A DNA stretch of 64,000 bases from an uncultured Myxococcales bacterium (GCA_964511535.1 CAZEFW010000015.1:3754-67753), one strand, 5' to 3'; shown: positions 1 to 52,813, numbered from the stretch's first letter. Made by a program: numbers and translations. The notes: a model not told the origin generated them from the letters alone.

Positions 1-500
1 GGGGACAGTGACCAGACCAGGGTGATGAACAGCGGGATCAGCAGCAGGGCCATCATGGTGTCGTTCTGGGCCAGCTCGAACTTCGGCTCCCAGAACAGCG
101 CCAGGGCCAGGGCGCCGATCCAGCGCTCCCGCCGGGGCAGCGCGGCGCCCGTGGGCCAGTAGAACCAGATCCCGATGCAGAGGAACTCCAGCAGCAAGTA
201 CGCCAGGTGAGTGCCCACCACCGGGTTGTCCGCCAGGCGGGCGGGCAACGAGAGCCAGGTGTAGAGCGGGCCGCCCAGGGAGTAGCCGGTGCGGCCCAGC
301 TCCTCGCCCAGCACCCACCAGCCGACCTGGTCGAAGTGCTGAAACTGCAGGTCCAGCAGGTGCAGGTGGGGCATGATCGAGGCGGTGTAGAAGATGTGCA
401 GGTGGCGCAGCGCCAGCGCGCCGGTCACCAGCAGGAACAGCAAGTGCGCCGCAAGCGGCGGCCGCCCCTCCTCGGCCGAGGGGTGGCTCAGCCCGACCAC
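1..500 (-). CDS. Membrane protein, partial (runs off window start); possible GTG start at 500..498 ten nt upstream of the TGA stop of the preceding gene
   Basis: Minus-strand frame translated manually from the sequence; it is an open frame of hydrophobic helices with no stops that reaches position 1 (ending ...ALFWEPKFELAQNDTMMALLLIPLFITLVWSLS). It is not in the ORF track because it is truncated by the window edge. Confidence 0.45.
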   Translation of the reverse strand, partial: MVGLSHPSAEEGRPPLAAHLLFLLVTGALALRHLHIFYTASIMPHLHLLDLQFQHFDQVGWWVLGEELGRTGYSLGGPLYTWLSLPARLADNPVVGTHLAYLLLEFLCIGIWFYWPTGAALPRRERWIGALALALFWEPKFELAQNDTMMALLLIPLFITLVWSLS

Positions 501-1054
501 TCGCCCTGCTCGTAGAACACCACGCCCGGGATCTGCCGCCGCTCCACCTCGGCGCGGACCACCTCGTCCACGACGATGGCCGAGCAGCTCTCGGCCAGGC
601 GGAACAGGCGCAGCCCGCGGGCGCGGTCCTCGTCAATCACCAGGCTGTCGAAGCCGGTGGCCAGCGGCCCGCCCGGCATCCCGGGCATCAGGGCCGAGGC
701 CGCCAGGTCCGCGGCCGCCACCAGCCCCAGCACGTTGAAGGCGACGTAGTCGGCGTGGCGCTCCCCGGCCTCAGGGTCGATGAGCAACGCCGGGAACAGC
801 TCCAGGTTGGTGACGCCCACCGCCTCGAGCGCCTCGAGCAGGTCGGCCCGCATCACCGGGAAGGCCTCGGCGTCGTACAGCGCGCCGAGGTTGCCCGGCT
901 CGTCCGGATCCATATCCAGGGTGTACTCCAGGGGCGTGGGCACCTCGATGGCCAGCTTGCGCCCCCGGTACCAGGGGCCGCCGGGCAGCTCCGGCCCCTC
1001 CTCGATGTCCACGCCAGGATAGGGGCCCTCTCCAACCATCACGAAATGGGCCAT
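488..1054 (-). CDS. Hypothetical cytoplasmic protein (188 aa); weak resemblance to DUF1629/Imm-type immunity proteins
   Basis: Complete ORF, acidic, no signal peptide, GC3-rich codon usage; last gene of a coupled operon. Confidence 0.5.
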   Translation of the reverse strand: MAHFVMVGEGPYPGVDIEEGPELPGGPWYRGRKLAIEVPTPLEYTLDMDPDEPGNLGALYDAEAFPVMRADLLEALEAVGVTNLELFPALLIDPEAGERHADYVAFNVLGLVAAADLAASALMPGMPGGPLATGFDSLVIDEDRARGLRLFRLAESCSAIVVDEVVRAEVERRQIPGVVFYEQGEWSG

Positions 1055-1111
1055 GAAGAGATAAACGCACCGCCGCCGGTGAAGGTCAAGCTGGCCGGCG
1101 GCGCCGCCGCC

Positions 1112-1903
1112 TCAGAACATGCAGGGGATCTGCAGGTTGAGCAGCACCTTGTCGCCGGCCTTCTTGACGGCGTAGGTGGGCGAGCGGACGTCCACGTTGC
1201 GCTCCTGATTGCTGGCGTTGCGCAGGGTGATACGGAACCAGCTGGCCCGGCCCGCCGGGATGTCCTTGAGCGTCAGGGTGTAGCTGAAGAGCGTCCGGTC
1301 CAGGGTGACCAGGGAGCGCGGGTAGATGGCCAGGGCCTCGGCGTCCACCACGGAGATGGCGTACGGCTGCCAGGCGCCGGTGTTGCCCGACTTGCAGCGC
1401 ACGGTGCCCTCCATGGTGCCGGTCTCGTGGGACACCATGTCCAGGGTCAGGTCGGTCTGCTTGCCCGCCACCAGGTCCACGGTCTGCACCTTCTGCTGCC
1501 GGTAGGTGCGCAGGCCGGCGGCGGTCACCAGCCACGCCACGGCGCCGACGCTGTATGAAGGCCCGCTCGGCACGGTGAGGCTCAGCACCACCTCGCCCGA
1601 GGCGCCCTCCCCCGCGCCGACGCCCTTTTTGGGGTCGGGCCAGGTGCCGGCCACGGTCTTCTTGCCCGAGGCGCCCACGGTGACGCGCACCAGCTTGGGG
1701 AACTGGTTGTCCTTGGCCGACTGGCCCAGGCGGAACAGCCCCTGGCTGTCCCAGGGCGAGTAGGAGCCGCCCCCGGTGAGGGCCGCGGGGGGCGTGTCCA
1801 GGACAACGGACAGGGCGACATACTCCTGGTCCATGGGATCGACCAGGCAGCCGCCGGCGAGCAGCGCCCACAGCAGGGCCAGGGTCCGCAGGGTGAGGGT
1901 CAC
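1112..1903 (-). CDS. Lipoprotein, hypothetical (263 aa)
   Basis: N-terminal signal peptide with lipobox LLAGGC; start overlaps the upstream stop (ATGA-type coupling). Confidence 0.6.
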   Translation of the reverse strand: MTLTLRTLALLWALLAGGCLVDPMDQEYVALSVVLDTPPAALTGGGSYSPWDSQGLFRLGQSAKDNQFPKLVRVTVGASGKKTVAGTWPDPKKGVGAGEGASGEVVLSLTVPSGPSYSVGAVAWLVTAAGLRTYRQQKVQTVDLVAGKQTDLTLDMVSHETGTMEGTVRCKSGNTGAWQPYAISVVDAEALAIYPRSLVTLDRTLFSYTLTLKDIPAGRASWFRITLRNASNQERNVDVRSPTYAVKKAGDKVLLNLQIPCMF

Positions 1904-2700
1904 TTGAACGCCCCCTTGGGTACGCCGCGGACGGTGATGCGTACCGGCGCGGTGAAGGTCTCCGGCGTGGAGGTGCCGCCGCTCTTGCCGTCGCCCACGC
2001 CCTCGCCCGCGCCGCCGCCCTCGGTGCAGCCGCAGGCGGCGGTCTCGCGCTGGGCCTGGCGCTCACGCTGGGCCGTGCCCTCGGCGCGCTGGATGTCCTC
2101 AAGGTCGAGCTCTCCGGCGGGGGGCGCCCAGGCGGGCGGGGGCTGATACCGGGCGGCGTCGGCGAGCAGCGCCGCCGGCGGGGGGCCCTGCACCGGGGCG
2201 GTCTTGCCGTCGGACAGCAGCGCGACGCCCTGCCCGGCGCGGACCTGGCGCCGCGCGCCGCCAGCCCGCGAGACGTTGACCATCCCGGACGTGACGTACA
2301 GCTTGCCCGGGGCCAGCAGCATCACCGCGCCCGCCCGGGGGGCGACCTTCCAGCCGCTCCAGCTGACCACCGCCGGGCCGCCCGCCAGGCGCATGGCCCC
2401 CGGTCCGGAGAAGGACAGGCCGCCGAGGAACGGATCCTCCGGCGTGAGCCTGGCCGGGCCGACCACCCCCACGGCCACGGCTCCCATCACGAGCTGAGCC
2501 ACCGCGCCCCGGGCCAGGACGAGGGTCTTCTTTTCGGCCACGACGCCGCCGGCGCCCTTGAGCGGCGCGCCGTCCAGGGTCGCCTCGCCCACCAGGGAGA
2601 GCAGGCTCAGCCCCGGCCCCGGCGCGCCGGGCTCGGGCGCGGCGCTCGCGCTGGAGGCCGCCAGCAGCAGCAGCAAGGTGAAGGCTCCGGTGCGCATCAT
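1900..2700 (-). CDS. Secreted FecR-like domain protein (start MMRTGAF..., about 267 aa)
   Basis: Signal peptide; the ATG overlaps the TGA of the upstream gene (AATGATG). The track ORF 1900..2874 is an upstream extension in the same frame. Confidence 0.55.
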   Translation of the reverse strand: MMRTGAFTLLLLLAASSASAAPEPGAPGPGLSLLSLVGEATLDGAPLKGAGGVVAEKKTLVLARGAVAQLVMGAVAVGVVGPARLTPEDPFLGGLSFSGPGAMRLAGGPAVVSWSGWKVAPRAGAVMLLAPGKLYVTSGMVNVSRAGGARRQVRAGQGVALLSDGKTAPVQGPPPAALLADAARYQPPPAWAPPAGELDLEDIQRAEGTAQRERQAQRETAACGCTEGGGAGEGVGDGKSGGTSTPETFTAPVRITVRGVPKGAFK

Positions 2701-4243
2701 TGGTAGCTCCACGAGACGTTGACCGACCCGAGGTGGCGCCGGATGTCGAAGCTGGCCACGGTGGAGGGGCGCCAGTCGCGTTGATAGGAGGCCCACACGC
2801 GAAAGCCGAGGGGCAGCGTCCGTCCCAGCTCCACCGCGAGCTGGATCTGGTGGTCCTCGCGCAGCTCCTTCCACGGGCCTCCCTCCGAGTGGGGGAAACG
2901 CTGGTGCTCGTAGGCGCCGCGCAGGCCGAGCACCAGGTCCAGGGGCAGCAGCAGCGACCCGCCCACCCCCTGGCCGTAGGCGAGGGCCGTGTAGTAATCC
3001 CGGTCGGCCATGCGGTAGCGGCCGTAGAGCCAGAACAGCAGCCGCAGGCGATCCGAGAGCACCGACAGCCCGTGCTCCAGCGACAGCTCCAGGCCGAGGT
3101 TGCTGCGGGGGAAGTGGGCGAAGGTCTCCCGGGCCACGCTGTAGGTCACGCGGGTGGCCCCGCCGTCAGCGGCCCGGCGCTCCAGGGTCAGGTGCCCTGC
3201 GTGGCGCTCGAGGAAGATGTGGTGGTCGTCGGCCACCGGTGGCGTGCCGTCCTCGAACAGCTCGTTGAACCCGTCGAGGAACACCAGGTCGAAGCTGTAG
3301 CTGGCCCCGAGGGTCCAGAGGTCCGGGCCGGAGGTGAGCACCCGCGAATAGCCCGCCACGGTGGACAGGGCGGTGGCGGCCACGTCAGACGCCGTGGGCG
3401 AGCCGCCGCCGGTGTCGGCCGGAAAGTAGAAGGTGCGCGCCACGCCGACCCTGCCCTCCACCCGGTTGAACCGATCGATCCAGGGGCGCAGGGTGAGGCT
3501 GCCCGCCAGGGAGAGGCCGAAGACCGGGTCCCCCTGGGCGTCATGCTCGTACAGCGGGTTTTCGTCCACCAGTCCGCCGGCGGCCAGGGAGCCGGAGAGG
3601 AACCCGGAGGGCAGGCCCCCTGCGTCGTGGGTCGCGCGCATCAGGCGGCGGGCCAGCTCACCCCGCTCGCCCAGCAGCAGGGGCGACAGCACGGCGCGGC
3701 TGCGGTCCAGCTCCCGCGCCCGGAACAGCGCAAGGGCCAGCTGCAGATCCGACTCCTGGCGTGGGCCCCCCTTCAGCTTGCGGGCCGCCCGCAGGGCCGC
3801 GGCCGCCTCGGCGGGCTCGTCCATGGCGAGGTAGGCGATGCCGAGGTAGTGCGCGGCGGCCCAGGAGCGCGGGGCGAGCTCGTGCGCCCGGCTCAGGGCG
3901 CGCACCGCCCAGACGGCGTTCCCCTCGGCCAGGTAGATCAGCCCGAGGTCCAGCTGCAACCGCGCGTCCTGCGGGGCCAGGCGGGCGGCGCCGCGCAGCA
4001 CCCGCCGCCCCTCCTCGAGCTGGCCCAGCCGCGCCAGGGCCAGGCCCAGGTGGTGCGCCGCGGCCAGGTGCTCCGGGTTCCCGCGCAGCGCGGCGCGCAG
4101 CAGGGGCACGGCCTTGCCCAGCTCGCCCTGCTGGTAGCGCAGGATCCCGCGCGCGGCTGACAGCTCCGGGGGCACGTCCGCGGCCAGCGCCGGGGCCGCC
4201 GCGAGGAACAACAGCAGGCCTGAGAGCAGGCTACTGCGCATTG
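2697..4243 (-). CDS. TPR-repeat N-terminal domain plus C-terminal outer-membrane beta-barrel-like protein (about 515 aa from MRSSLLSG...)
   Basis: Signal peptide; TPR-like repeats (AAHHLGLALARLG, AAHYLGIAYLAMDEP); the C-terminus alternates hydrophobic residues and ends ...SVNVSWSYQ (aromatic OMP-like terminus); GGGAG RBS before the ATG at 4243. Confidence 0.6.
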
Positions 4244-4911
4244 AGCTCCCGTACCTTCTTGGCCGCCGCGGGCGCGTCCTTGTCCGAAAACTCGGACAGC
4301 TTGGAGGCCAGGCGGCCCTGCTTGTCGACGAAGAAGAAGTCGTAGTAGTTGGCACCGTAGAGGTACCAGACCCCCTTGGTGTCAGGCGTCACGGGGAAGC
4401 TCACCTTGTCGAAGCCGGGCGCGGCGTACTCCCAGGTGACGCCGCCGGCGGTCACCGCCAGCAGCTCAAAGTCGGTGATCCCCTCGGCCTGGAGGGGCTT
4501 GACCAGCTTGTTCTCGAAGGCAACAACCTGCTGCCCACAGTAGCCTCACCCGAGTAACCCGAAGTAGAGCATCACCACCTTCCCCTTGAGGGCGTTGAGG
4601 CAGACCTGCTTGTTGTAGTGGGCGCTCCTGGGGTTGACCGCCTTGAGGCAGAAGTTGGGGGCGGGGACCCGATCGGAGATGGCGAAGACGCAGCGGTTGC
4701 TCTTGCACGACTTGCCCACGGGCACGCCCTTGACGTAGCAGTCGGCGTCCTTCTCGCACTGCAGGTAGCAGCTGCCGGTGGCCAGCTCGCAGATCTGGCC
4801 GCCCGGGCAGTCGCCGTCCGCGGCGCAGCGACCGTAGGTGGAGTCCACCAGGCAGCCGCCCGCCAGCAGCAGGCAGGGGATCAGCAGCAGCGGGAGGTGG
4901 CGGCCGGGCAT
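4231..4911 (-). CDS. Candidate selenoprotein: Cys-rich lipoprotein with a TlpA/ResA-like thioredoxin-fold domain; in-frame TGA at 4548..4546 sits at the first position of CxxC (KGKVVMLYFGLLG-U-GYCGQQ)
   Basis: Track ORFs 4546..5559(-) and 4231..4455(-) are in the same frame, separated only by one TGA. Translation continues across it without stops (...UGYCGQQVVAFENKLVKPLQAEGITDFELLAVTAGGVTWEY...FFFVDKQGRL...). GGGAGG RBS lies 7 nt before the ATG at 4911. Signal peptide with lipobox LLLAGGC. A 6-bp stem with loop AGGUU lies 10 nt 3' of the UGA on the mRNA (+ strand 4535..4519). Confidence 0.6.
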
Positions 4912-6041
4912 CACTTGCCTCCCGTGGTTGTGTGGAGCATCACGCCGCCCTCGCCCACGGCCCACCCCTCGGAGGCAGAGCTGAAGCAGACCGACTCGAG
5001 CCGCTTGGTGGTGCCGGACGGCTGCACCTTCCAGGAGCCGCCGCCGTCGGTGGTGTGCAGGATGGTCCCCTTGTCGCCCACGGCCCAGCCGAGCTTGCTG
5101 CTGTACATGTAGACGTCCCACAGGTGGTTCTTGGTGGGAGACGTGATCGCCTTCCAGACCTTGCCCTTGCCGTCGGTGCTGCGCAGGATGCCGCCGAACT
5201 CGCCCACCGTGACGCCCAGGGAGGGGCCCACGAAGTCGAGGCCGCGCAGGGCGTACTTGAAGGCCGTCTTGACCGACGCCCAGGTGACGCCGCCATCGCT
5301 GGTGTAGTACACCTTGCCGCCGGTCTTGCCCACCATCCAGCCGAGCTTGTTGAACGAGAAGATGTCGTAGAACTCCTCGCTCTTGTAGGTGGGCGTGGCG
5401 CAGACCCAGCTGTAGGAGACCGAGCCGTCGTAATACTTGGACCCGCCGCCCTGCTTGTTCACCGCCACCCCGGCGCCGAGGCCGCGGTCGTAGTCGTGCA
5501 GGTGCAGGGCGTAGAAGGTGTCGAAGATGTAGGCGCTGCACTGGGGAGCGACCCCCCACTTGGTGCCCAGGTCCATGGTCTGCCAGATGTTGTAGTCCTT
5601 GCCCGCGACCACGCCGTAGGTCGCGCCCTTGGCGTTCTCACCGAACGCCACGGTGAACAGCTCCTTCTTGGTGCTGGCGGACTGGTTGACGAAGGTCTTC
5701 TTGCCCTTGGCCCGGTACAGGATGGTGCCCTTCTTGCCCACGGCGAAGACATGGCCCTTGAAGCAGGCCACGGCGTGCAGGTCCACCGGGGCCGACAGCT
5801 CCGCCTTCCACTTGGGCGGCCCCATGGTGTCGGGGGGCGGCGCCTTGTCGGGAGGCGGCTGGGTGTCCGGCGGCGGGGCGGTGTCCGGGACGGGGGCGCT
5901 GTCCGGCTTCAGGTCCGGCGTGGAGCCCAGGTCGGGCCAGACCGCCCCCGAGTCGGCGGAGGCCGCCCGGTCCGAGCAGGCGGAGGCCAGCCCTACGGAC
6001 AGGGCGATGATGGCGAGGGTTATATAGGGTACGCGCTGCAT
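4911..6041 (-). CDS. Lipoprotein with Ycf48-like/BNR (sialidase-type) beta-propeller repeats
   Basis: Signal peptide plus lipobox (LASAC); repeated motifs GWAVG...GTILHTTDGGGSW / YYTSDGGVTW; stop overlaps the start of the downstream gene (ATGA). Confidence 0.65.
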   Translation of the reverse strand: MQRVPYITLAIIALSVGLASACSDRAASADSGAVWPDLGSTPDLKPDSAPVPDTAPPPDTQPPPDKAPPPDTMGPPKWKAELSAPVDLHAVACFKGHVFAVGKKGTILYRAKGKKTFVNQSASTKKELFTVAFGENAKGATYGVVAGKDYNIWQTMDLGTKWGVAPQCSAYIFDTFYALHLHDYDRGLGAGVAVNKQGGGSKYYDGSVSYSWVCATPTYKSEEFYDIFSFNKLGWMVGKTGGKVYYTSDGGVTWASVKTAFKYALRGLDFVGPSLGVTVGEFGGILRSTDGKGKVWKAITSPTKNHLWDVYMYSSKLGWAVGDKGTILHTTDGGGSWKVQPSGTTKRLESVCFSSASEGWAVGEGGVMLHTTTGGK

Positions 6042-6098
6042 GGGGGGATCGTACCAGAGGATCTCCCGGAAACTAAAGGGGGCAAAAGCCTCCAGCAG

Positions 6099-7106
6099 TC
6101 AGCCCACCAGCTCGTGTGGGTACCGCTCCAGCGCCTCCGGGTTCACCAGGTTCGGCGGCATCCGCCCACTCAGCACCGCGTGGGCGTTGGCCGCCGCCGC
6201 CCGGGCCATGCCGGCGCGAGCCCCCACGGTGGCGCTGCCCAGGTGCGGCAGCACCAGCACGTTGTCCAGATCGGCCAGCCCCTGCGCCATGGCCGGCTCA
6301 CGCTCGAAGACGTCCAGCGCCGCGCCGGCGATGCCGCCGCGCTGGAGGCACGACACCAGCGCGGCCTCGTCGACGATGGGCCCCCGGGCGGTGTTGATCA
6401 GGTGGGCGGTGGGCTTCATCAACCCCAGGCGCTCGGCGTCGATGAGGTGCCGGGTCTGCTCGGTCAACGGCGTGTGGATCGTCACGAAGTCCGCCTCGCC
6501 CAGCAGCTGCTCCAGGGAGACCCCGTGCGCCCGGGTCAGCCCCAGGTCGACCTCGCCCTGCGCGCCGGTGTCGTGAAACAGGATCCGCATGTCGAACCCC
6601 GCCGCTCGCCGCGCCACGGCCCGGCCGATCTGTCCCAGCCCGACGATGCCGAGGGTCTTGCCCGCGACGTCCGCGCCCAGCAGCAGCAGCGGCCCCCACC
6701 CGTCGTACTGCCCCGCGCGCATGAAGCGGTCCCCCTCCACCAGCCGCCTCGCGATGCCCAGGATCAACGCCCAGGTCAGGTCCGCGGTGGCCTCGGTGAG
6801 CACCCCGGGCGTGTTGGTCACCAGCACGCCGCGCCGCGTGGCCGCGGGCACGTCCACGTTGTCGAAGCCCACCGCGTAGTTGGCCACCACCCGCAGCCGC
6901 GGCGATGCCGCCGCCAACAGCTCCTCGTCCACGGCGACGGTGAGCAGCGGCAGCAGGGCGTCGAACCGCCCCACCCGCTCCAGCACCGCGGACCGCGGCT
7001 CTGTCCCTTGAAGCTGCACCACCCGGTGGTGCTGGTGCAGCAGGTCGAGGCCGCCCTGCACCAGCGGATGCGTCACCAGGATCCGCCCGCCATCAGACAT
7101 GCTCAT
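6099..7106 (-). CDS. D-isomer-specific 2-hydroxyacid dehydrogenase (glyoxylate/hydroxypyruvate reductase family)
   Basis: NAD-binding GxGxxG (GIVGLGQIGRAVARRA), catalytic-domain pattern and overall length typical of the family. Confidence 0.85.
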   Translation of the reverse strand: MSMSDGGRILVTHPLVQGGLDLLHQHHRVVQLQGTEPRSAVLERVGRFDALLPLLTVAVDEELLAAASPRLRVVANYAVGFDNVDVPAATRRGVLVTNTPGVLTEATADLTWALILGIARRLVEGDRFMRAGQYDGWGPLLLLGADVAGKTLGIVGLGQIGRAVARRAAGFDMRILFHDTGAQGEVDLGLTRAHGVSLEQLLGEADFVTIHTPLTEQTRHLIDAERLGLMKPTAHLINTARGPIVDEAALVSCLQRGGIAGAALDVFEREPAMAQGLADLDNVLVLPHLGSATVGARAGMARAAAANAHAVLSGRMPPNLVNPEALERYPHELVG

Positions 7107-7629
7107 GCTCCTTCATCGTCCACGCCGCCAGCGCTCCGAACGCCAGCATCGCGCCCTTGGCCAGGGCCAGCGGGGCCACTGAAAGCGGCGTGAGCAGCCC
7201 GAGGGCGGTGCCCGCGCCCGCCACGGCCATGGCCGCCAGGCAGAACCACCGCGACCGCCCGGTGATGAGCAGCACGGCCGCGGCGAAGGCCATCAGCCCG
7301 CCCAGAACGGACACCGCGCCAGAGACCATCATGATGGCGCTCGAGTCCTCGAGCTCCTCGACGATCTTCGTCGCCCGGGCCTTGACTCGGGCCAGCGCTT
7401 GCCGCTCGCCCAGCTGCTTGAGCTTCACGCCCCGCTTGCGCAACAGCCGGCGCTCCGACGCGCTGAGCCCCCCCGCCGCGCTGCCGACGTTCTGTTCCAG
7501 CAGCTTGAGGCCGGCGTGGATCACGGTGCGCCCCGCGCGGCTCGCCCCGGCCGCGGCCATGTTGCACGCCCCACTGCTGAAACAGAGGATGGCAGCCAGC
7601 AAAACCACCATCCCGCCTGCGATACGCAT
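7093..7629 (-). CDS. Membrane protein, hypothetical (178 aa)
   Basis: N-terminal hydrophobic segment plus two C-terminal TM helices; overlaps the downstream gene by 14 nt. Confidence 0.5.
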   Translation of the reverse strand: MRIAGGMVVLLAAILCFSSGACNMAAAGASRAGRTVIHAGLKLLEQNVGSAAGGLSASERRLLRKRGVKLKQLGERQALARVKARATKIVEELEDSSAIMMVSGAVSVLGGLMAFAAAVLLITGRSRWFCLAAMAVAGAGTALGLLTPLSVAPLALAKGAMLAFGALAAWTMKEHEHV

Positions 7630-7694
7630 CGCTGTGCTCCTCTGTAGGTCACTTTAGCTCAAACTACGCCGGGTGAGGTACACTGCTCCCCACC

Positions 7695-8165
7695 ATGCGT
7701 GTGCTGGCTTCCATGCTGTTCATCACCGCTGCGGTGGTCCAGCTCCTGCTCGGGGGGCTGCTCATCTTCTCCGGGCAGGACCAGGAGCATGACGCCCGGG
7801 CGGAGGTGGGCGACCTGTCGTCTGTGAGCGCCGACCTGGTGAGCGAAGAGGAGCTCGCCGCCATGAAGGCCACCGGCGACCGGGAGGCCGGCGGGGCAGG
7901 CAAGCAGACCCAGGCGCTGGGCATCCTGGCGCTGGCCCTGGCCGCCCTGCTGCTGGTGGCCGCCCTGCTGGTGATGCTGCGCAAGGGACCCGCCCCGGTC
8001 CGCCTGGCCCCGGGGGTGCTCTCCATGGCCTGCCTTGCCGCCATCTGGTTCCTGGAGGGCGGGCCGCTCACCGCGATCATCGCCCTGGCCCTGCTCGCCC
8101 TTGGCCTGATCCTCGCCGGCGCGGACGCGGCTCGAAATTCCACCGCCAAGCAGGTGGCGCCGTGA
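7695..8165 (+). CDS. Membrane protein, hypothetical (156 aa, 4 predicted TM helices)
   Basis: Hydrophobic helices; stop overlaps the GTG start of the HAD gene (GTGA). Confidence 0.5.
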   Translation: MRVLASMLFITAAVVQLLLGGLLIFSGQDQEHDARAEVGDLSSVSADLVSEEELAAMKATGDREAGGAGKQTQALGILALALAALLLVAALLVMLRKGPAPVRLAPGVLSMACLAAIWFLEGGPLTAIIALALLALGLILAGADAARNSTAKQVAP

Positions 8166-12846: not shown

Positions 12847-13965
12847 ATGCAATTGAATCCGTTACTTGCCCGGCTATTACTCCCGGGCGTCCTGGCCGTT
12901 GCCCTCACGGGCTGCAGCGATGGTACGGGCAGCAGCGACCCGGCCACCACGGAGTGGAAGCGGCAGACCATGATTGACGCCTGCGTGCGCATGCACTCCT
13001 GCGGGGTCTTCGCGGTCACCGACGTCTACGGCTGCATCACGGACTTCGAGGAGACCAAGGCCACGCCCACGGGGACTGCCGCCATGTACAAGAAGCGGCA
13101 CTTCTGCGTCAACAAGGCCGGCGGCGATTGTGACGCCATTCGCGCCTGCTTCGGCGGCCAGAAGTGGGACCTGGAGAAGCAAGGCCCTGAGTGCGACAGC
13201 ACCTTCAAGCCGAGCTGCGAGGGGACCAAGATGCGCATCTGCGACTCGCTCAACAAGCGCATCTTCGCCCTGGACTGCGCGGAGGCCGGGCTCTCCTGCG
13301 CCACCGACGTCAACGGCCAGCCCTTCTGCAGCGCAGGCCCGTGCAAGACGGCCAAGAAGAACGACAACACCTGCAGCGAGGACAAGACGCAGCACCTGTT
13401 CTGCAACGGCACCGGCCTGCAGATCGAGCAGTGTGACTGGCTCAGCCTCGTGTGCGGAAAGGACCGGGACGGCAAGATCGATTGCGTCGGGACCGGAAAG
13501 GAATGCAAGGGGTGAGCTAGCAAAGACGGCCTTTCGTGTAAAGGCATCGGCACCCCGACTTACTGCGAGACTGGCGACACCTGCGAAGACAAGGCGGCCT
13601 GGAAGTGCAAGCGGGCCAGCAACAGCAAGACCTACCTCTCGGCCGCGAGCGCCAAGGGCCCCGCCTGCGGACTGCACCCCGGCTACCGCACCGGCTGCAT
13701 GTGCGGCAACGAGGCGAACATCGACTGCCGCTCCATGCCTGGCAAACGCATCTGCGACCCGAAGGCCGACAAGTTCGACTACTGCGCCCCCGCGGGCAAG
13801 GAGTGCGGCGTCGCATCGGGCGTCAAGGACGCCTGCGACGGCGACACGCTCGTCTTCTGCGTGGACGGCTTCAAGACCCGGGTAGACTGCACCAAGTTCG
13901 GCTTCAAGGGCTGCAAGAGCCTCACCGTGGGCGGCGGCTCGGTCCTCGGCGCGCTCTGTTACTGA
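12847..13965 (+). CDS. Cys-rich secreted lipoprotein; single in-frame TGA at 13513..13515 (candidate selenocysteine, or a nonsense-interrupted pseudogene)
   Basis: Track ORFs 12847..13515 and 13699..13965 share a frame. The 183 nt between them are open and encode Cys-rich sequence of the same character (ASKDGLSCKGIGTPTYCETGDTCEDKAAWKCK...). Signal peptide with lipobox LTGC. Stem-loop GCCUUUCGUGUAAAGGC at 13529..13545, 13 nt after the TGA. Confidence 0.5.

Positions 13966-50559: not shown

Positions 50560-50562
<3 letters not shown>
50449..50562. terminator. Long imperfect palindrome built from family-1 heptamer repeats, plus a perfect 8-bp stem (GCAGCCGC/GCGGCTGC), between convergent genes; probable bidirectional terminator
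   Basis: Arms GGCTTCAGACTTCAGGCTTCAGGCTTCAGG and CCTGAAGCCCGAGGCCTGAAGCCCGAAGCC. Confidence 0.5.
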
Positions 50563-51075
<513 letters not shown>

Positions 51076-51126
51076 TGTGGTCGCTCCTTGTGATCGGGTC
51101 TTGGTCAAATGAGTTGGGAGTATGGC

Positions 51127-51582
51127 TCAGGCTCGGGCGCGGCGCACGTTGTACACACCGCTGCCCGTGGTGATGATTCTGTCGGGGTTCGAGCGCGCCC
51201 AGACCTTCATGGAGGTGGCGCCCACGTGGTTGCCGATGCGCACCACCACGGCCTCGCAGATCAGGTCTTCAAGGGGGCCGGGCCGCAGGTAATCCACCCG
51301 CAGGTCCACCGTGGAGACCCGGTCGCTGGGCCGCGCGGCGCACCACACCGCGGCGCCGCCGCAGGTGTCCACCAGGGTGCTCATGGCGCCGCCGTGCATG
51401 GCCGGCCTGAACGGATCGCCGATGAGCTCGTCGCGGAACGGCAACTCCATCACCGCGCGGCCGCCGCCGATCTCCAGCAGGTGGATGCCGAGGAACTTGT
51501 TGAACGGCACCTGCTCGTCCATGAATTTGGTGACGCGGGCGTTGACCTCGCTCATGTCCATGTCGGGGTTGTCGTCGGGCAT
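51127..51582 (-). CDS. PaaI/YbgC-type hotdog-fold thioesterase
   Basis: Pattern LG....E.G.G.AV.EL.....L....G..HGGA..TL.D. Confidence 0.7.
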   Translation of the reverse strand: MPDDNPDMDMSEVNARVTKFMDEQVPFNKFLGIHLLEIGGGRAVMELPFRDELIGDPFRPAMHGGAMSTLVDTCGGAAVWCAARPSDRVSTVDLRVDYLRPGPLEDLICEAVVVRIGNHVGATSMKVWARSNPDRIITTGSGVYNVRRARA

Positions 51583-51595
51583 GTCGGTCAGGACC

Positions 51596-52813
51596 CTACA
51601 CCCAGTTGCGCAGCACGAGCAAGGTCAGGTGGATGCCCCCCATGAGGCCGCCGAGCAGCGCGCCGTAGATCACCAGGTATATCTCCTCGGCGGCGAACAG
51701 CTGGCGGATGAACTGCTCGAAGCGCAGCTTCGGCAGCGCCACCACCTTCTTGACCAGGATGTCGTGCACGTCGAGCTGACGCGCGGCCGCTTCCACCACT
51801 CGCTCCAGCGCGGCGGGCAGCTCATCCCGGTACAGCTCCAGCAGCCGCTGGCGCAGCTCCTCTTGCTGCTCGGGCTTGAGCGTGGCGTTGACCAGCCCCT
51901 GCACCGCGGGCATGCGCTGGTAGAGCGCCTGCTCCAGCTGCCCTGCCAGCTCCGGGGAAGCGGCGTCGGGCAGGGCGCGCTCGGCCAGGCGGGAGAAGAT
52001 CTTCTCCGGCACGATGAACTGGTCGGCGGCGATGCTGGCCAGCTCGGTGGCGATCTCCTCCTGGCGTTTCGGGAACATGCCCTGGAACGAGAAGGGCCCC
52101 AGGTTCAGCGGCCGGCGCGGCACGAACAGCATCTTTATGGCCAGGAAGTTGGTCACCGCTCCCACCACCATGCCCATGACCACCAGCGACAGGCGCACCG
52201 GGAAGAAGGCGCTGACCGTGAACTGGATCAGACCGATGAGCAGGCCGAACACCCCGCCGTAGACGCGGATCCAGAACAGCTCCCCCTTGCCCAGCTCGCG
52301 GATGATGGCCACAAAGCGCGCCGGCCCCAGCTCCAGCAGCTTGTCCACGATGAGCTGGTTCAGGTCGAGCAGGCGGTCGGCCCGCGCGGCCAAACCCCCC
52401 AGGGCGCCGGGGAGCTCGGCGGCCATCTCCTGCTCCAGCCGGGCGCGGGCCTTGGCCACCACCCGTTCGCCCAGCAGCATCTCGGCCTGGGCAGGCGGCA
52501 GCAGGGCCCTGAGATCCGCCAGCGCGCGGTCGAGCAGCGGCTCCAGCTGCGGCCGCACCTCCTCGAGCAGCCGCCCGGGATCGAGGCGCTGCACAAGCTC
52601 GCCGGTGGTCATGAAGTCGCCAGTGACCGCCGCGGCCATCTCCCCGCAGAAGAACTTGTGGTGCTTGGGCAGCACGCCCTGCCAGCGAAACCCGAGGTAG
52701 CGCCGCGGCTCGATGGGGAAGAAGATCATCCGCACCGCGATGACGTTGGTCACCCACCCCACCAGCGCGAAGAAGCAGGGGAAGATGATCAGGAGCCCGT
52801 ACCAGGGAATCAT
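51596..52813 (-). CDS. DUF445-family membrane protein
   Basis: N- and C-terminal TM helices with a central helical region. Start at MIPWYG; track ORF extends to 53005. Confidence 0.55.
   Translation of the reverse strand: MIPWYGLLIIFPCFFALVGWVTNVIAVRMIFFPIEPRRYLGFRWQGVLPKHHKFFCGEMAAAVTGDFMTTGELVQRLDPGRLLEEVRPQLEPLLDRALADLRALLPPAQAEMLLGERVVAKARARLEQEMAAELPGALGGLAARADRLLDLNQLIVDKLLELGPARFVAIIRELGKGELFWIRVYGGVFGLLIGLIQFTVSAFFPVRLSLVVMGMVVGAVTNFLAIKMLFVPRRPLNLGPFSFQGMFPKRQEEIATELASIAADQFIVPEKIFSRLAERALPDAASPELAGQLEQALYQRMPAVQGLVNATLKPEQQEELRQRLLELYRDELPAALERVVEAAARQLDVHDILVKKVVALPKLRFEQFIRQLFAAEEIYLVIYGALLGGLMGGIHLTLLVLRNWV

What the first reader, a model, noticed from the sequence alone, without database searches (positions are those of the whole stretch)
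488..6041. Seven-gene translationally coupled envelope operon: BNR/Ycf48-like lipoprotein, Sec-TlpA lipoprotein, TPR plus OM beta-barrel, FecR-like, lipoprotein, immunity-like protein, membrane protein
Consecutive minus-strand genes share overlapping start and stop codons: ATGA at 4911-4913, the 4231-4243 overlap, AATGATG at 2697-2700, the overlap at 1900-1903, and a GTG 10 nt before the TGA at 488. Every product is envelope-targeted (signal peptides, lipoboxes, an OMP-like C-terminus). A periplasmic thiol-disulfide oxidoreductase (possibly Sec-containing) coupled to a TPR/beta-barrel outer-membrane protein and a beta-propeller lipoprotein suggests an undescribed outer-membrane redox or assembly module.
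Basis: partly seen in the sequence, partly recalled or inferred. Interest (0 to 1): 0.55.

Follow-up and report, generated by a model that had tools for sequence, protein, structure and literature searches.

The report
Selenoprotein redoxin in outer-membrane operon
An uncultured marine Myxococcota-like bacterium carries a conserved five-gene outer-membrane operon whose thiol-disulfide oxidoreductase lipoprotein is a genuine selenocysteine protein that annotation pipelines split in two, and it sits beside a barrel protein built like a surface-lipoprotein translocon; the operon's job is still unknown.

Summary
The conserved unit is five genes (A-E, 1112-6041, minus strand), not seven. Imm11 (F) and the membrane protein (G) are missing at this position in relatives.

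Gene B (4231-4911) is very likely a selenoprotein:
- Its in-frame TGA (4546-4548) lies at the first position of a UxxC motif in a TlpA/ResA-type thioredoxin fold.
- The TGA is kept in every relative whose DNA I could read, five further distinct loci, down to about 43% identity.
- Two full-length homologues have Cys there (CTPC, CAPC). One of them sits in the same A-B-C context.
- A 7-bp hairpin with an AGGYU loop starts 9 nt after the UGA. It shows compensatory changes and is absent from the Cys form.
- Purifying selection is equal on both sides of the TGA.

Gene C models as a signal peptide, a TPR domain and a 14-stranded barrel. That is the architecture of Slam/T11SS translocons, but there is no DUF560 sequence match. 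A is a Ycf48-like propeller lipoprotein. E is a tandem Ig-like lipoprotein. D is an orphan secreted protein; "FecR-like" is unsupported.

Function is inferred, not shown. The finding is a new variant of known kinds and of moderate interest.

The parts
6048..6053 (-). Conserved TACGAT hexamer exactly 6 nt upstream of the ATG of gene A, with no Shine-Dalgarno sequence. Candidate -10 box for a leaderless transcript that starts the operon (inferred).
   Evidence: The same hexamer and spacing occur in window, L005, L007 and L015, and as TATCAT in L014, while the flanking bases vary. The consensus promoter scan did not call it.
4911..6041 (-). Gene A: 376-aa lipoprotein (lipobox ...GLASAC) with a Pro-rich linker and a Ycf48-like BNR beta-propeller.
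   Evidence: Pfam PSII_BNR 9.2e-20, 71.5 bits against a cut-off of 27. The NCBIfam Ycf48 equivalog scores only 72.6 against a cut-off of 326. A homologue precedes B in L005, L007, L012, L013, L014 and L015.
4231..4911 (-). Gene B: 226-aa lipoprotein (LAGGC). It has an N-terminal domain with eight conserved Cys followed by a TlpA/ResA-type thioredoxin fold with active site U-G-Y-C. It is a selenoprotein that gene callers split into 121 + 74 aa.
   Evidence: (NF053656 redoxin_TUGYCR 7.4e-15).
4546..4548 (-). In-frame UGA read as selenocysteine (residue 122 of B).
   Evidence: The TGA is at the same alignment column in L005, L007, L008, L013, L014 and L015. Cys occupies that column in P0033 and P0045. 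It is the only TGA in the window with coding signal on both sides inside a real gene. Genes A, C, D, E and F all end in TGA, so TGA is otherwise a stop in this genome.
4518..4536 (-). SECIS-like hairpin: a 7-bp stem (GGGCAGC/GUUGCCU) with an AGGUU loop, starting 9 nt after the UGA.
   Evidence: All 35 pair cells are paired in 5 distinct sequences, and 3 of 7 pairs show compensatory changes, against none when the partner is slid. It is absent at the homologous place in the Cys form L012. Its folding energy is not exceptional against shuffles (z = 0.62).
2697..4241 (-). Gene C: 514 aa, made of a signal peptide, a TPR domain (about 25-208) and a 14-stranded beta-barrel (215-513).
   Evidence: AlphaFold2 model with pLDDT 83.4 and 14 strands. 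Pfam finds TPR families only and no DUF560. PDB Foldseek finds BcsC, TPR proteins and the 14-strand barrel CymA. The 11-nt B/C overlap is conserved in L005, L007, L012, L015 and in the P0006 and P0027 contigs.
1900..2700 (-). Gene D: 266-aa secreted protein with no family assignment and a conserved C-terminal tail (…ETAACGCTEGGG…TPETFTxPVRVxVRGVPKG).
   Evidence: Alignment A6. No Pfam or PDB match. It follows C in every relative whose contig extends far enough.
1112..1903 (-). Gene E: 263-aa lipoprotein (LAGGC) with two Ig-like beta-sandwich domains. Conserved Cys170 and Cys261.
   Evidence: Alignment A2. AlphaFold2 model with pLDDT 81.8. PDB Foldseek gives weak matches to Bacteroides 'putative cell adhesion' lipoproteins.
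1068..1081 (-). Weak terminator-like hairpin in the 57-nt gap after E. Possible end of the conserved unit.
   Evidence: The scan found 2 sites against 1.9 expected by chance, so on its own it is not significant.
488..1054 (-). Gene F: Imm11 immunity-family protein, cytoplasmic. A neighbour, not part of the conserved module.
   Evidence: Pfam Imm11 2.2e-9. It is absent after E in L005, L007, L015 and the P0027 and P0006 contigs.
1..500 (-). Gene G: 5' part of a 633-aa polytopic membrane protein with no family hit. A neighbour, not part of the conserved module.
   Evidence: In L007 a gene of the same length (633 aa, homology not checked) lies elsewhere on the opposite strand.
6099..7629 (-). Upstream conserved neighbours: a 178-aa membrane protein (7093-7629) and a glyoxylate-reductase-like D-2-hydroxyacid dehydrogenase (6099-7106). 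Possibly co-transcribed with the module. No functional link is evident.
   Evidence: NCBIfam glyoxylate reductase 1.8e-108. The same pair lies upstream of A in L005, L007 and L015, and the dehydrogenase also in L012.

Best explanation
Genes A-E form a conserved operon for an outer-membrane protein complex in an uncultured Myxococcota-like lineage.

Shown here:
- B is translated through UGA(4546-4548) as selenocysteine, directed by the hairpin immediately downstream. The product is a lipoprotein whose TlpA/ResA-type thioredoxin fold carries a U-G-Y-C redox centre.
- C is a TPR plus 14-stranded barrel protein.
- A and E are lipoproteins, a Ycf48-like propeller and a tandem Ig-like protein. D is a secreted protein.
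- The five genes travel together, with conserved start/stop overlaps.

Inferred mechanism:
- C works like a Slam/type-11-secretion outer-membrane protein. Its periplasmic TPR domain receives the co-encoded lipoproteins, and its barrel anchors them at the outer membrane or passes them across it.
- B is the catalytic subunit. It reduces or isomerises disulfides, or a peroxide-type oxidant, on a substrate held by the propeller and Ig-like partners. Selenocysteine gives it a more reactive nucleophile that is less prone to irreversible over-oxidation than the Cys forms have.

Confidence by layer: selenoprotein about 0.9; conserved five-gene envelope module about 0.9; Slam-like translocon or scaffold role of C about 0.35.
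For: Selenocysteine in B:
- The in-frame TGA is conserved at one alignment column in 7 Sec-form loci (6 distinct sequences, window included). The protein is conserved on both sides of it, down to about 43% identity.
- Synonymous and non-synonymous codon differences are alike upstream and downstream of the TGA, for example 23/25 against 22/26.
- Two full-length Cys homologues have CTPC and CAPC at that column. P0033 sits in the same dehydrogenase-A-B-C context with the same overlaps.
- Most database relatives are 84-112-aa fragments that begin just after the TGA. These are split Sec genes.
- The hairpin is fully paired, with 3 compensatory pairs. It has a small G-containing loop and is missing from the Cys form. 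This matches the criteria for bacterial selenoprotein calls in PMC1088965.
- NCBIfam 'TUGYCR motif thioredoxin fold (seleno)protein' matches at 7.4e-15.
- The closest solved relatives are TlpA-like proteins and ResA, with their CxxC aligned to UxxC.

The module:
- The order A-B-C-D-E, or the part that fits on the contig, is found in L005/L006, L007, L015, L008/L013, L014, L012 and the P0006 and P0027 contigs. C-D(-E) is found in two Myxococcales/Deltaproteobacteria MAGs.

The architecture of C:
- The model has a signal peptide (about 1-20), a TPR domain (25-208) and a 14-strand barrel (215-513).
- Neisseria Slam has a signal peptide (1-18), a TPR domain (19-198) and a DUF560 barrel (199-497) with 14 strands (PMC13230968; PMC8406197).
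- Slam genes characteristically sit beside the genes of their lipoprotein cargo (title and abstract of PMC5449769, listed; not read further).
Against: - No selA, selB, selD or tRNA-Sec gene lies in the 64-kb window. The rest of the genome could not be searched.
- The hairpin's folding energy is unremarkable for this GC content (z = 0.62). All compensatory changes come from one lineage (L014).
- Rfam reports nothing in the region.
- C has no detectable DUF560/Slam barrel similarity in any of 8 homologues, even at E<=10. The only Slam-related hit is a weak generic match to the TPR_Slam model.
- E lacks the C-terminal 8-stranded barrel that marks classical T11SS cargo. Its C-terminal domain has 7 strands in an Ig-like fold (PMC12282271).
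- No electron donor of the CcdA/DsbD type and no obvious substrate gene is linked to the operon.
- T11SS has so far been described only in Proteobacteria.
Confidence: 0.45

Rival explanations
1. Periplasm-facing complex. The lipoproteins stay on the inner leaflet of the outer membrane, and C is only a docking barrel or small-solute channel. B acts as a classical TlpA/ResA-type periplasmic reductase, or as a peroxide-scavenging redoxin, for envelope proteins. Nothing is moved to the cell surface.
For: B's nearest solved relatives are periplasmic reductases such as ResA, DsbE and TlpA-like proteins. C has no DUF560 signature. E lacks the T11SS cargo barrel. A beta-propeller lipoprotein together with a TPR element and a barrel also describes periplasm-facing machines such as BAM (own knowledge).
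Against: A fused TPR plus 14-strand barrel of about 500 aa next to lipoprotein genes is the Slam layout. B carries a Myxococcus-type Cys-rich repeat region (TIGR04201 0.004, TraA 0.012). Such repeats are typical of surface proteins (own knowledge). Tethering to the outer membrane puts B far from the inner-membrane electron donors that TlpA/ResA enzymes normally use.
Confidence: 0.35
2. C is an exopolysaccharide export porin of the PgaA/BcsC/PelB type, and the neighbouring proteins are polymer-modifying or polymer-binding factors.
For: The best PDB fold match is BcsC (E 1.9e-14). NCBIfam gives weak TPR-region hits to PgaA, BcsC and PrsT.
Against: The family hits cover TPR repeats only. The barrel has 14 strands against 16 in PgaA-type barrels. 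hhalign of the barrel profile against E. coli PgaA is not significant (probability 0.3). No glycosyltransferase or synthase gene is linked in any of the loci. The TM-score to BcsC is only 0.34.
Confidence: 0.05
3. The TGA in B is a true stop. Either B is a pseudogene, or two separate small proteins are made, and the gene cluster is fortuitous synteny among close relatives.
For: All pipelines call two ORFs. No Sec machinery was seen in the window. The hairpin is not thermodynamically exceptional.
Against: The stop is kept at the active-site column across lineages as divergent as about 43% identity, with equal purifying selection on both sides. The internal start codons chosen by the pipelines differ between loci, giving 74, 77, 78, 90 and 97 aa. 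A split at that point would cut the thioredoxin fold between strand 1 and helix 1. Cys forms exist in the same operon context. The gene order persists while the flanking genes change.
Confidence: 0.04

Closest known systems
Slam / type 11 secretion system outer-membrane proteins (DUF560; Neisseria Slam1/2, Xenorhabdus NilB)
   Same: Both have a signal peptide, a periplasmic TPR domain of about 180 aa and a 14-stranded C-terminal barrel, about 500 aa in total. Both genes lie directly next to lipoprotein genes.
   Different: There is no DUF560 sequence match. The neighbouring lipoproteins lack the usual C-terminal 8-strand cargo barrel. The host is Myxococcota-like, whereas T11SS is described only in Proteobacteria. 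Secretion is untested.
TlpA / ResA / CcmG(DsbE) extracytoplasmic thiol-disulfide oxidoreductases
   Same: Both have a thioredoxin fold of the AhpC-TSA/Redoxin type, with the redox motif at the start of helix 1, and both are exported and membrane-tethered.
   Different: B has Sec in place of the first Cys. It carries an extra N-terminal domain with eight conserved Cys and a lipoprotein anchor. It is encoded with outer-membrane components, not with cytochrome-maturation or copper-chaperone genes.
Catalogued Sec-containing thioredoxin-fold families: NCBIfam NF053656 'TUGYCR motif thioredoxin fold (seleno)protein', Prx-like thiol:disulfide oxidoreductase, and Redoxin-family UxxC selenoproteins
   Same: All share a UxxC motif in a redoxin fold, the existence of Cys-form homologues, and a bacterial-type SECIS directly after the UGA.
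   Different: B scores 55 bits against a cut-off of 100 for NF053656. The motif here is G-U-G-Y-C-G or T-U-P-H-C-G. The lipobox, the Cys-rich N-domain and the fixed five-gene context were not found in the papers read here.
Ycf48/HCF136 photosystem II assembly factor
   Same: A is a lipoprotein with a BNR-type beta-propeller that passes the Pfam PSII_BNR threshold.
   Different: A falls far below the Ycf48 equivalog cut-off (72.6 against 326). It has a long Pro-rich linker, and nothing photosynthetic is seen in its gene context.

Membership tests
Bacterial selenoprotein (UGA decoded as Sec) | In-frame UGA with a conserved, selected reading frame on both sides | tested here: met
Bacterial selenoprotein (UGA decoded as Sec) | Homologues with Cys aligned to the UGA (at least two, per PMC1088965) | tested here: met
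   P0033 (CTPC) and P0045 (CAPC).
Bacterial selenoprotein (UGA decoded as Sec) | Stem-loop immediately downstream of the UGA, with a small apical loop containing G | tested here: met
   A 7-bp stem with an AGGYU loop starts 9 nt after the UGA. All pairs form, 3 pairs are compensatory, and the hairpin is absent from the Cys form. Its stability z-score is unremarkable.
Bacterial selenoprotein (UGA decoded as Sec) | selA, selB, selC (tRNA-Sec) and selD present in the same genome | not testable with these tools
   There is no tRNA in the window. Only 64 kb plus flanks of the genome are accessible.
NCBIfam NF053656 redoxin_TUGYCR (seleno)protein | HMM score at or above the curated cut-off (100 bits) and the T-U-G-Y-C-R motif | tested here: not met
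   55.1 bits, E 7.4e-15. The motif is G-U-G-Y-C-G, or T-U-P-H-C-G in L008, L013 and L014. B is related to this family but is not a member by the curated threshold.
TlpA/ResA-type thioredoxin-fold oxidoreductase | AhpC-TSA/Redoxin domain with a CxxC-position redox motif aligned to ResA/TlpA | tested here: met
   Pfam AhpC-TSA scores 27.5 bits against a cut-off of 26. A PDB profile search finds 2ls5, 3kcm and ResA at 6.5e-7 to 1e-4, with the motif aligned.
Slam / T11SS outer-membrane protein | DUF560 (PF04575) barrel detectable by sequence | tested here: not met
   The window protein has no hit at E<=10, and DUF560 is not among the 25 most-shared families (of 33) listed for the 8 homologues.
Slam / T11SS outer-membrane protein | N-terminal periplasmic TPR domain followed by a 14-stranded barrel | tested here: met
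Slam / T11SS outer-membrane protein | Adjacent cargo with a C-terminal 8-stranded beta-barrel domain | tested here: not met
   E consists of two Ig-like sandwiches. A is a propeller and B a thioredoxin fold. Marine cluster-3 T11SS also rarely have this domain (PMC12282271).
Slam / T11SS outer-membrane protein | Cargo reaches the cell surface or medium in a barrel-dependent way | not testable with these tools
   This needs an experiment.
Ycf48 (PSII assembly factor) | Equivalog-level match (NF010237, cut-off 326 bits) | tested here: not met
   72.6 bits. A passes only the Pfam domain-family threshold.
FecR | FecR domain (PF04773) detectable in D | tested here: not met
   None of 5 D homologues has a hit at E<=10. 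PDB gives nothing.
Imm11 immunity protein (gene F) | Pfam PF07791 above the gathering score | tested here: met
   37.4 bits against 22.1.
PgaA/BcsC exopolysaccharide porins | Barrel homology and linkage to synthase genes | tested here: not met
   NCBIfam hits fall in the TPR region only. hhalign against the E. coli PgaA barrel gives probability 0.3. No synthase genes lie in the flanks.

The most novel reading that the evidence does not exclude
C represents a sequence-unrelated (or unrecognisably diverged) counterpart of the Slam/T11SS translocon outside the Proteobacteria, and it displays a selenocysteine-dependent thiol-disulfide oxidoreductase on the cell surface together with propeller and Ig-like lipoproteins. 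This would be an extracellular, outer-membrane-anchored selenoenzyme complex in marine Myxococcota.
Probability: 0.2. Interest if true: 0.75.

Novelty: new variant of a known kind. Interest (0 to 1): 0.5.

Why it matters
- Every pipeline that annotated these contigs splits gene B in two, so the selenoprotein is invisible in databases. Recognising it adds an exported, lipid-anchored UxxC redoxin with a Cys-rich N-domain to the bacterial selenoproteome. It also shows Sec and Cys forms alternating within one fixed operon, which is a clean natural experiment on why Sec is chosen.
- The operon couples this enzyme, by conserved start/stop overlap, to a TPR plus 14-strand barrel protein that copies the Slam/T11SS blueprint without its sequence signature. 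If the resemblance is functional, it extends lipoprotein surface-display machinery beyond Proteobacteria and points to an outer-membrane redox activity of unknown substrate.
- If the resemblance is not functional, the result is still a well-delimited, testable five-protein envelope complex from an uncultured lineage.

Tried and rejected
- The word-indexed protein search with B (U replaced by C) found nothing.
- The representative library and the structure tool refuse edited or stop-containing sequences. Only the 104-aa part after the UGA could be searched, and B itself could not be modelled.
- My metagenome scan used an alignment with Cys at the Sec column. One search pattern therefore excluded TGA forms, and the scan returned only two loci, both Sec forms found through the other pattern.
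- Rfam at E<=10 gave no SECIS or other relevant family in 1-8000.
- The genome-contig scan with the C alignment found only two distant MAG contigs.
- PDB profile searches for the barrel and for D found nothing. Pfam on D homologues found nothing.
- hhalign of the barrel against E. coli PgaA was not significant.
- Cluster look-up gave no organism names.
- I rejected 'TGA is reassigned genome-wide', because five of the operon's genes end in TGA.
- I rejected 50560-51624 as a second Sec gene. It is a thioesterase gene and a cyclophilin gene that happen to lie in the same frame, with a GC3 dip between them.


Full report
**Setting.** The window has about 71% G+C. Identical copies of the region lie on marine metagenome contigs of up to 118 kb, and 168 kb in NCBI. 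The only relatives of gene C among 185,579 species-representative genomes are two MAGs labelled Myxococcales and Deltaproteobacteria. B also carries a weak Myxococcus-type Cys-rich repeat. A Myxococcota-like host is therefore likely, though this is inferred.

**Observation.**
- Seven minus-strand ORFs are present, with third-position G+C of 0.94-0.97 in the proposed frames.
A/B is TGATG with a 1-nt overlap. B/C overlaps by 11 nt (4231-4241). C/D is ATGA. D/E is GTGA. F/G overlaps by 13 nt, with a GTG at 500.
- E/F is separated by 57 nt and holds the only terminator-like hairpin on this strand. That scan is at chance level.
- Pfam confirms a Ycf48-like BNR propeller (A), an AhpC-TSA/Redoxin fold (B), TPR repeats (C) and Imm11 (F).
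- D has no FecR signal or any other family signal, even across five homologues at E<=10 or against PDB sequences.
- F has no signal peptide, so 'every product is envelope-targeted' is not correct.

**The unit is five genes.** I looked up the contigs that encode homologues of C and E.
- L005/L006, L007 and L015 (C about 70-75% identical) carry the 2-hydroxyacid dehydrogenase, A, a split B, then C, D and E, followed by a PALP-family enzyme.
- The P0027 contig (E 35% identical) carries A, a split B, C, D and E, followed by rpmE and prfA.
- The P0006 contig (C 45% identical) carries a B fragment, C, D and E, followed by unrelated genes.
- L008, L013 and L014 carry A, B and C as far as the short contigs reach.
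- L009/L010 and L011 (C 28-29% identical) carry C and D, plus E in L009/L010 where the contig reaches far enough.
- Imm11 and the 633-aa membrane protein follow E only in the window's own lineage.
- The 11-nt B/C overlap recurs in six independent loci. This argues for coupled synthesis of B and C.
- Upstream of A, the hexamer TACGAT (TATCAT in L014) lies exactly 6 nt before the ATG in five lineages, with no Shine-Dalgarno sequence. I read this as a -10 box for a leaderless transcript that starts at A. This is an inference, and the consensus scan did not call it.

**Gene B is a selenoprotein.**
- The TGA at 4546-4548 interrupts an otherwise continuous frame. It sits where thioredoxin-fold enzymes carry the first Cys of CxxC...VVMLYFGLLG-U-GYCGQQ....
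- The same column is TGA in L005, L007, L015 (GLLG*GYCGQQ), L008 and L013 (GWIT*PHCGQQ) and L014 (GWIT*PHCGGQ).
- Between the window, L005 and L007, the 104 codons after the TGA show 21-25 synonymous and 16-26 non-synonymous codon differences. The 100 codons before it show the same pattern. Both halves are therefore under equal purifying selection.
- A search of 1.84 billion representative proteins with the post-UGA part returned 29 hits. Most are 84-112-aa fragments that start just after the UGA region, which are split genes. Two are full-length proteins with Cys at the column: P0033 (LLGCTPCG) and P0045 (LLGCAPCG).
- P0033 lies between a Ycf48-like gene and the start of a TPR gene, with the same 1-nt and 11-nt overlaps. 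Sec and Cys forms therefore alternate inside one operon.
- Nine nucleotides after the UGA, a 7-bp stem with an AGGYU loop is paired in all five distinct sequences. Three pairs changed on both sides in L014, and sliding the partner column removes the signal. The Cys form has no such hairpin.
- These are the criteria used for calling bacterial selenoproteins (PMC1088965). From my own knowledge, the loop sequence and its distance from the UGA resemble the E. coli fdhF SECIS.
- TGA is a normal stop in this genome, since A, C, D, E and F end in it.
- A window-wide scan finds no other TGA with coding signal on both sides inside a real gene.
- Caveats: no Sec machinery is visible in the 64 kb. The hairpin's energy is ordinary for this G+C content. 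Rfam reports nothing.

**What kind of enzyme B is.**
- NCBIfam's 'TUGYCR motif thioredoxin fold (seleno)protein' matches at 7.4e-15 but below its cut-off (55 against 100 bits).
- The nearest solved structures are TlpA-like proteins and ResA, with the CxxC aligned to UxxC.
- UxxC Prx-like, Redoxin and TlpA-type selenoproteins are already listed in the 2026 review of prokaryotic selenoproteomes (PMC13188914).
- The novelty lies in the architecture and context: a lipobox, an N-terminal domain with eight invariant Cys, and the fixed operon.

**Gene C.**
- With eight homologues, AlphaFold2 gives a confident model (pLDDT 83.4). It has a signal peptide, TPR helices at 25-208 and 14 beta-strands at 215-513.
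- PDB Foldseek finds BcsC (TPR plus barrel, TM 0.34), many TPR proteins and the 14-strand barrel CymA (TM 0.55 on the target).
- No barrel family is detected by Pfam in any homologue, by PDB sequence profile or by hhalign against E. coli PgaA.
- The domain plan and size match Neisseria Slam almost residue for residue: TPR 19-198 and DUF560 barrel 199-497 with 14 strands (PMC13230968; PMC8406197).
- Slam/T11SS genes are typically adjacent to the lipoproteins they export.
- Membership fails on the DUF560 test and on the cargo-barrel test. The claim is therefore 'works like', not 'is a'.

**Genes A, D and E.**
- A passes the Pfam PSII_BNR threshold but is far below the Ycf48 equivalog threshold. 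It has a Pro-rich linker of about 40 residues after the lipid anchor.
- E models as two Ig-like sandwiches (pLDDT 81.8), with weak matches to Bacteroides fimbrial or adhesin-type lipoproteins.
- D is an orphan protein with a strongly conserved C-terminal tail.

**Interpretation.**
- Shown: a conserved five-gene set encoding one barrel protein, three lipoproteins and one secreted protein, and Sec in the redoxin.
- Inferred: the products form an outer-membrane complex in which C docks the lipoproteins or moves them to the surface, and B supplies Sec-based thiol-disulfide or peroxide chemistry.
- The main rival keeps everything on the periplasmic face. The two differ only in topology, and that needs an experiment.
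- An exopolysaccharide porin role and a pseudogene or chance reading are unlikely, for the reasons given under rival explanations.

**Verdict.** The strongest result is a bona fide, mis-annotated selenoprotein lipoprotein embedded in a conserved outer-membrane operon with a Slam-like barrel. It is a new variant of known kinds and of moderate interest.

Noticed in passing
window 12847-13965 (+), TGA at 13513-13515: A Cys-rich lipoprotein ORF is interrupted by an in-frame TGA (...GKECKG*ASKDGLSCKG...). The frame stays open and Cys-rich for 149 more codons. GC3 dips for about 30 codons after the TGA and then returns to 0.9-1.0. A 6-bp hairpin (GCCUUU/AAAGGC, loop CGUGU) begins 13 nt after the TGA and is built from the atypically AT-rich codons. 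This could be a second selenoprotein gene, a pseudogene or two genes. Pipelines + 88 aa.
   Followed up: partly
window 6042-6053 (-); also L005 8186-8197, L007 8198-8209, L015 5806-5817: The hexamer TACGAT is conserved exactly 6 nt upstream of the start codon of gene A, with no ribosome-binding site. This suggests a leaderless mRNA.
   Followed up: partly
L005 12349-12511: A 163-nt insertion between D and E is packed with GCCTGGC/GCCAGGC inverted repeats, like a REP or MITE element. Here it breaks the GTGA coupling seen in the window.
   Followed up: no
window 488-1054 (-): An orphan Imm11 immunity gene has no toxin gene nearby. Its end overlaps the start of a 633-aa membrane protein gene. The pair is absent from this position in relatives, so it looks like a lineage-specific insertion.
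   Followed up: partly
L001 19255-21131 (about 3-5 kb beyond the left end of the window): A large protein carries eukaryote-type Stig1, fibrillar-collagen C-terminal (COLFI) and Fibrinogen_C Pfam domains.
   Followed up: no
window 50560-51624 (-): Two ORFs, read by eye as a PaaI-type thioesterase and a cyclophilin-type isomerase, lie in the same frame separated by a TGA. GC3 drops between them, so they are two ordinary genes, not a read-through.
   Followed up: yes
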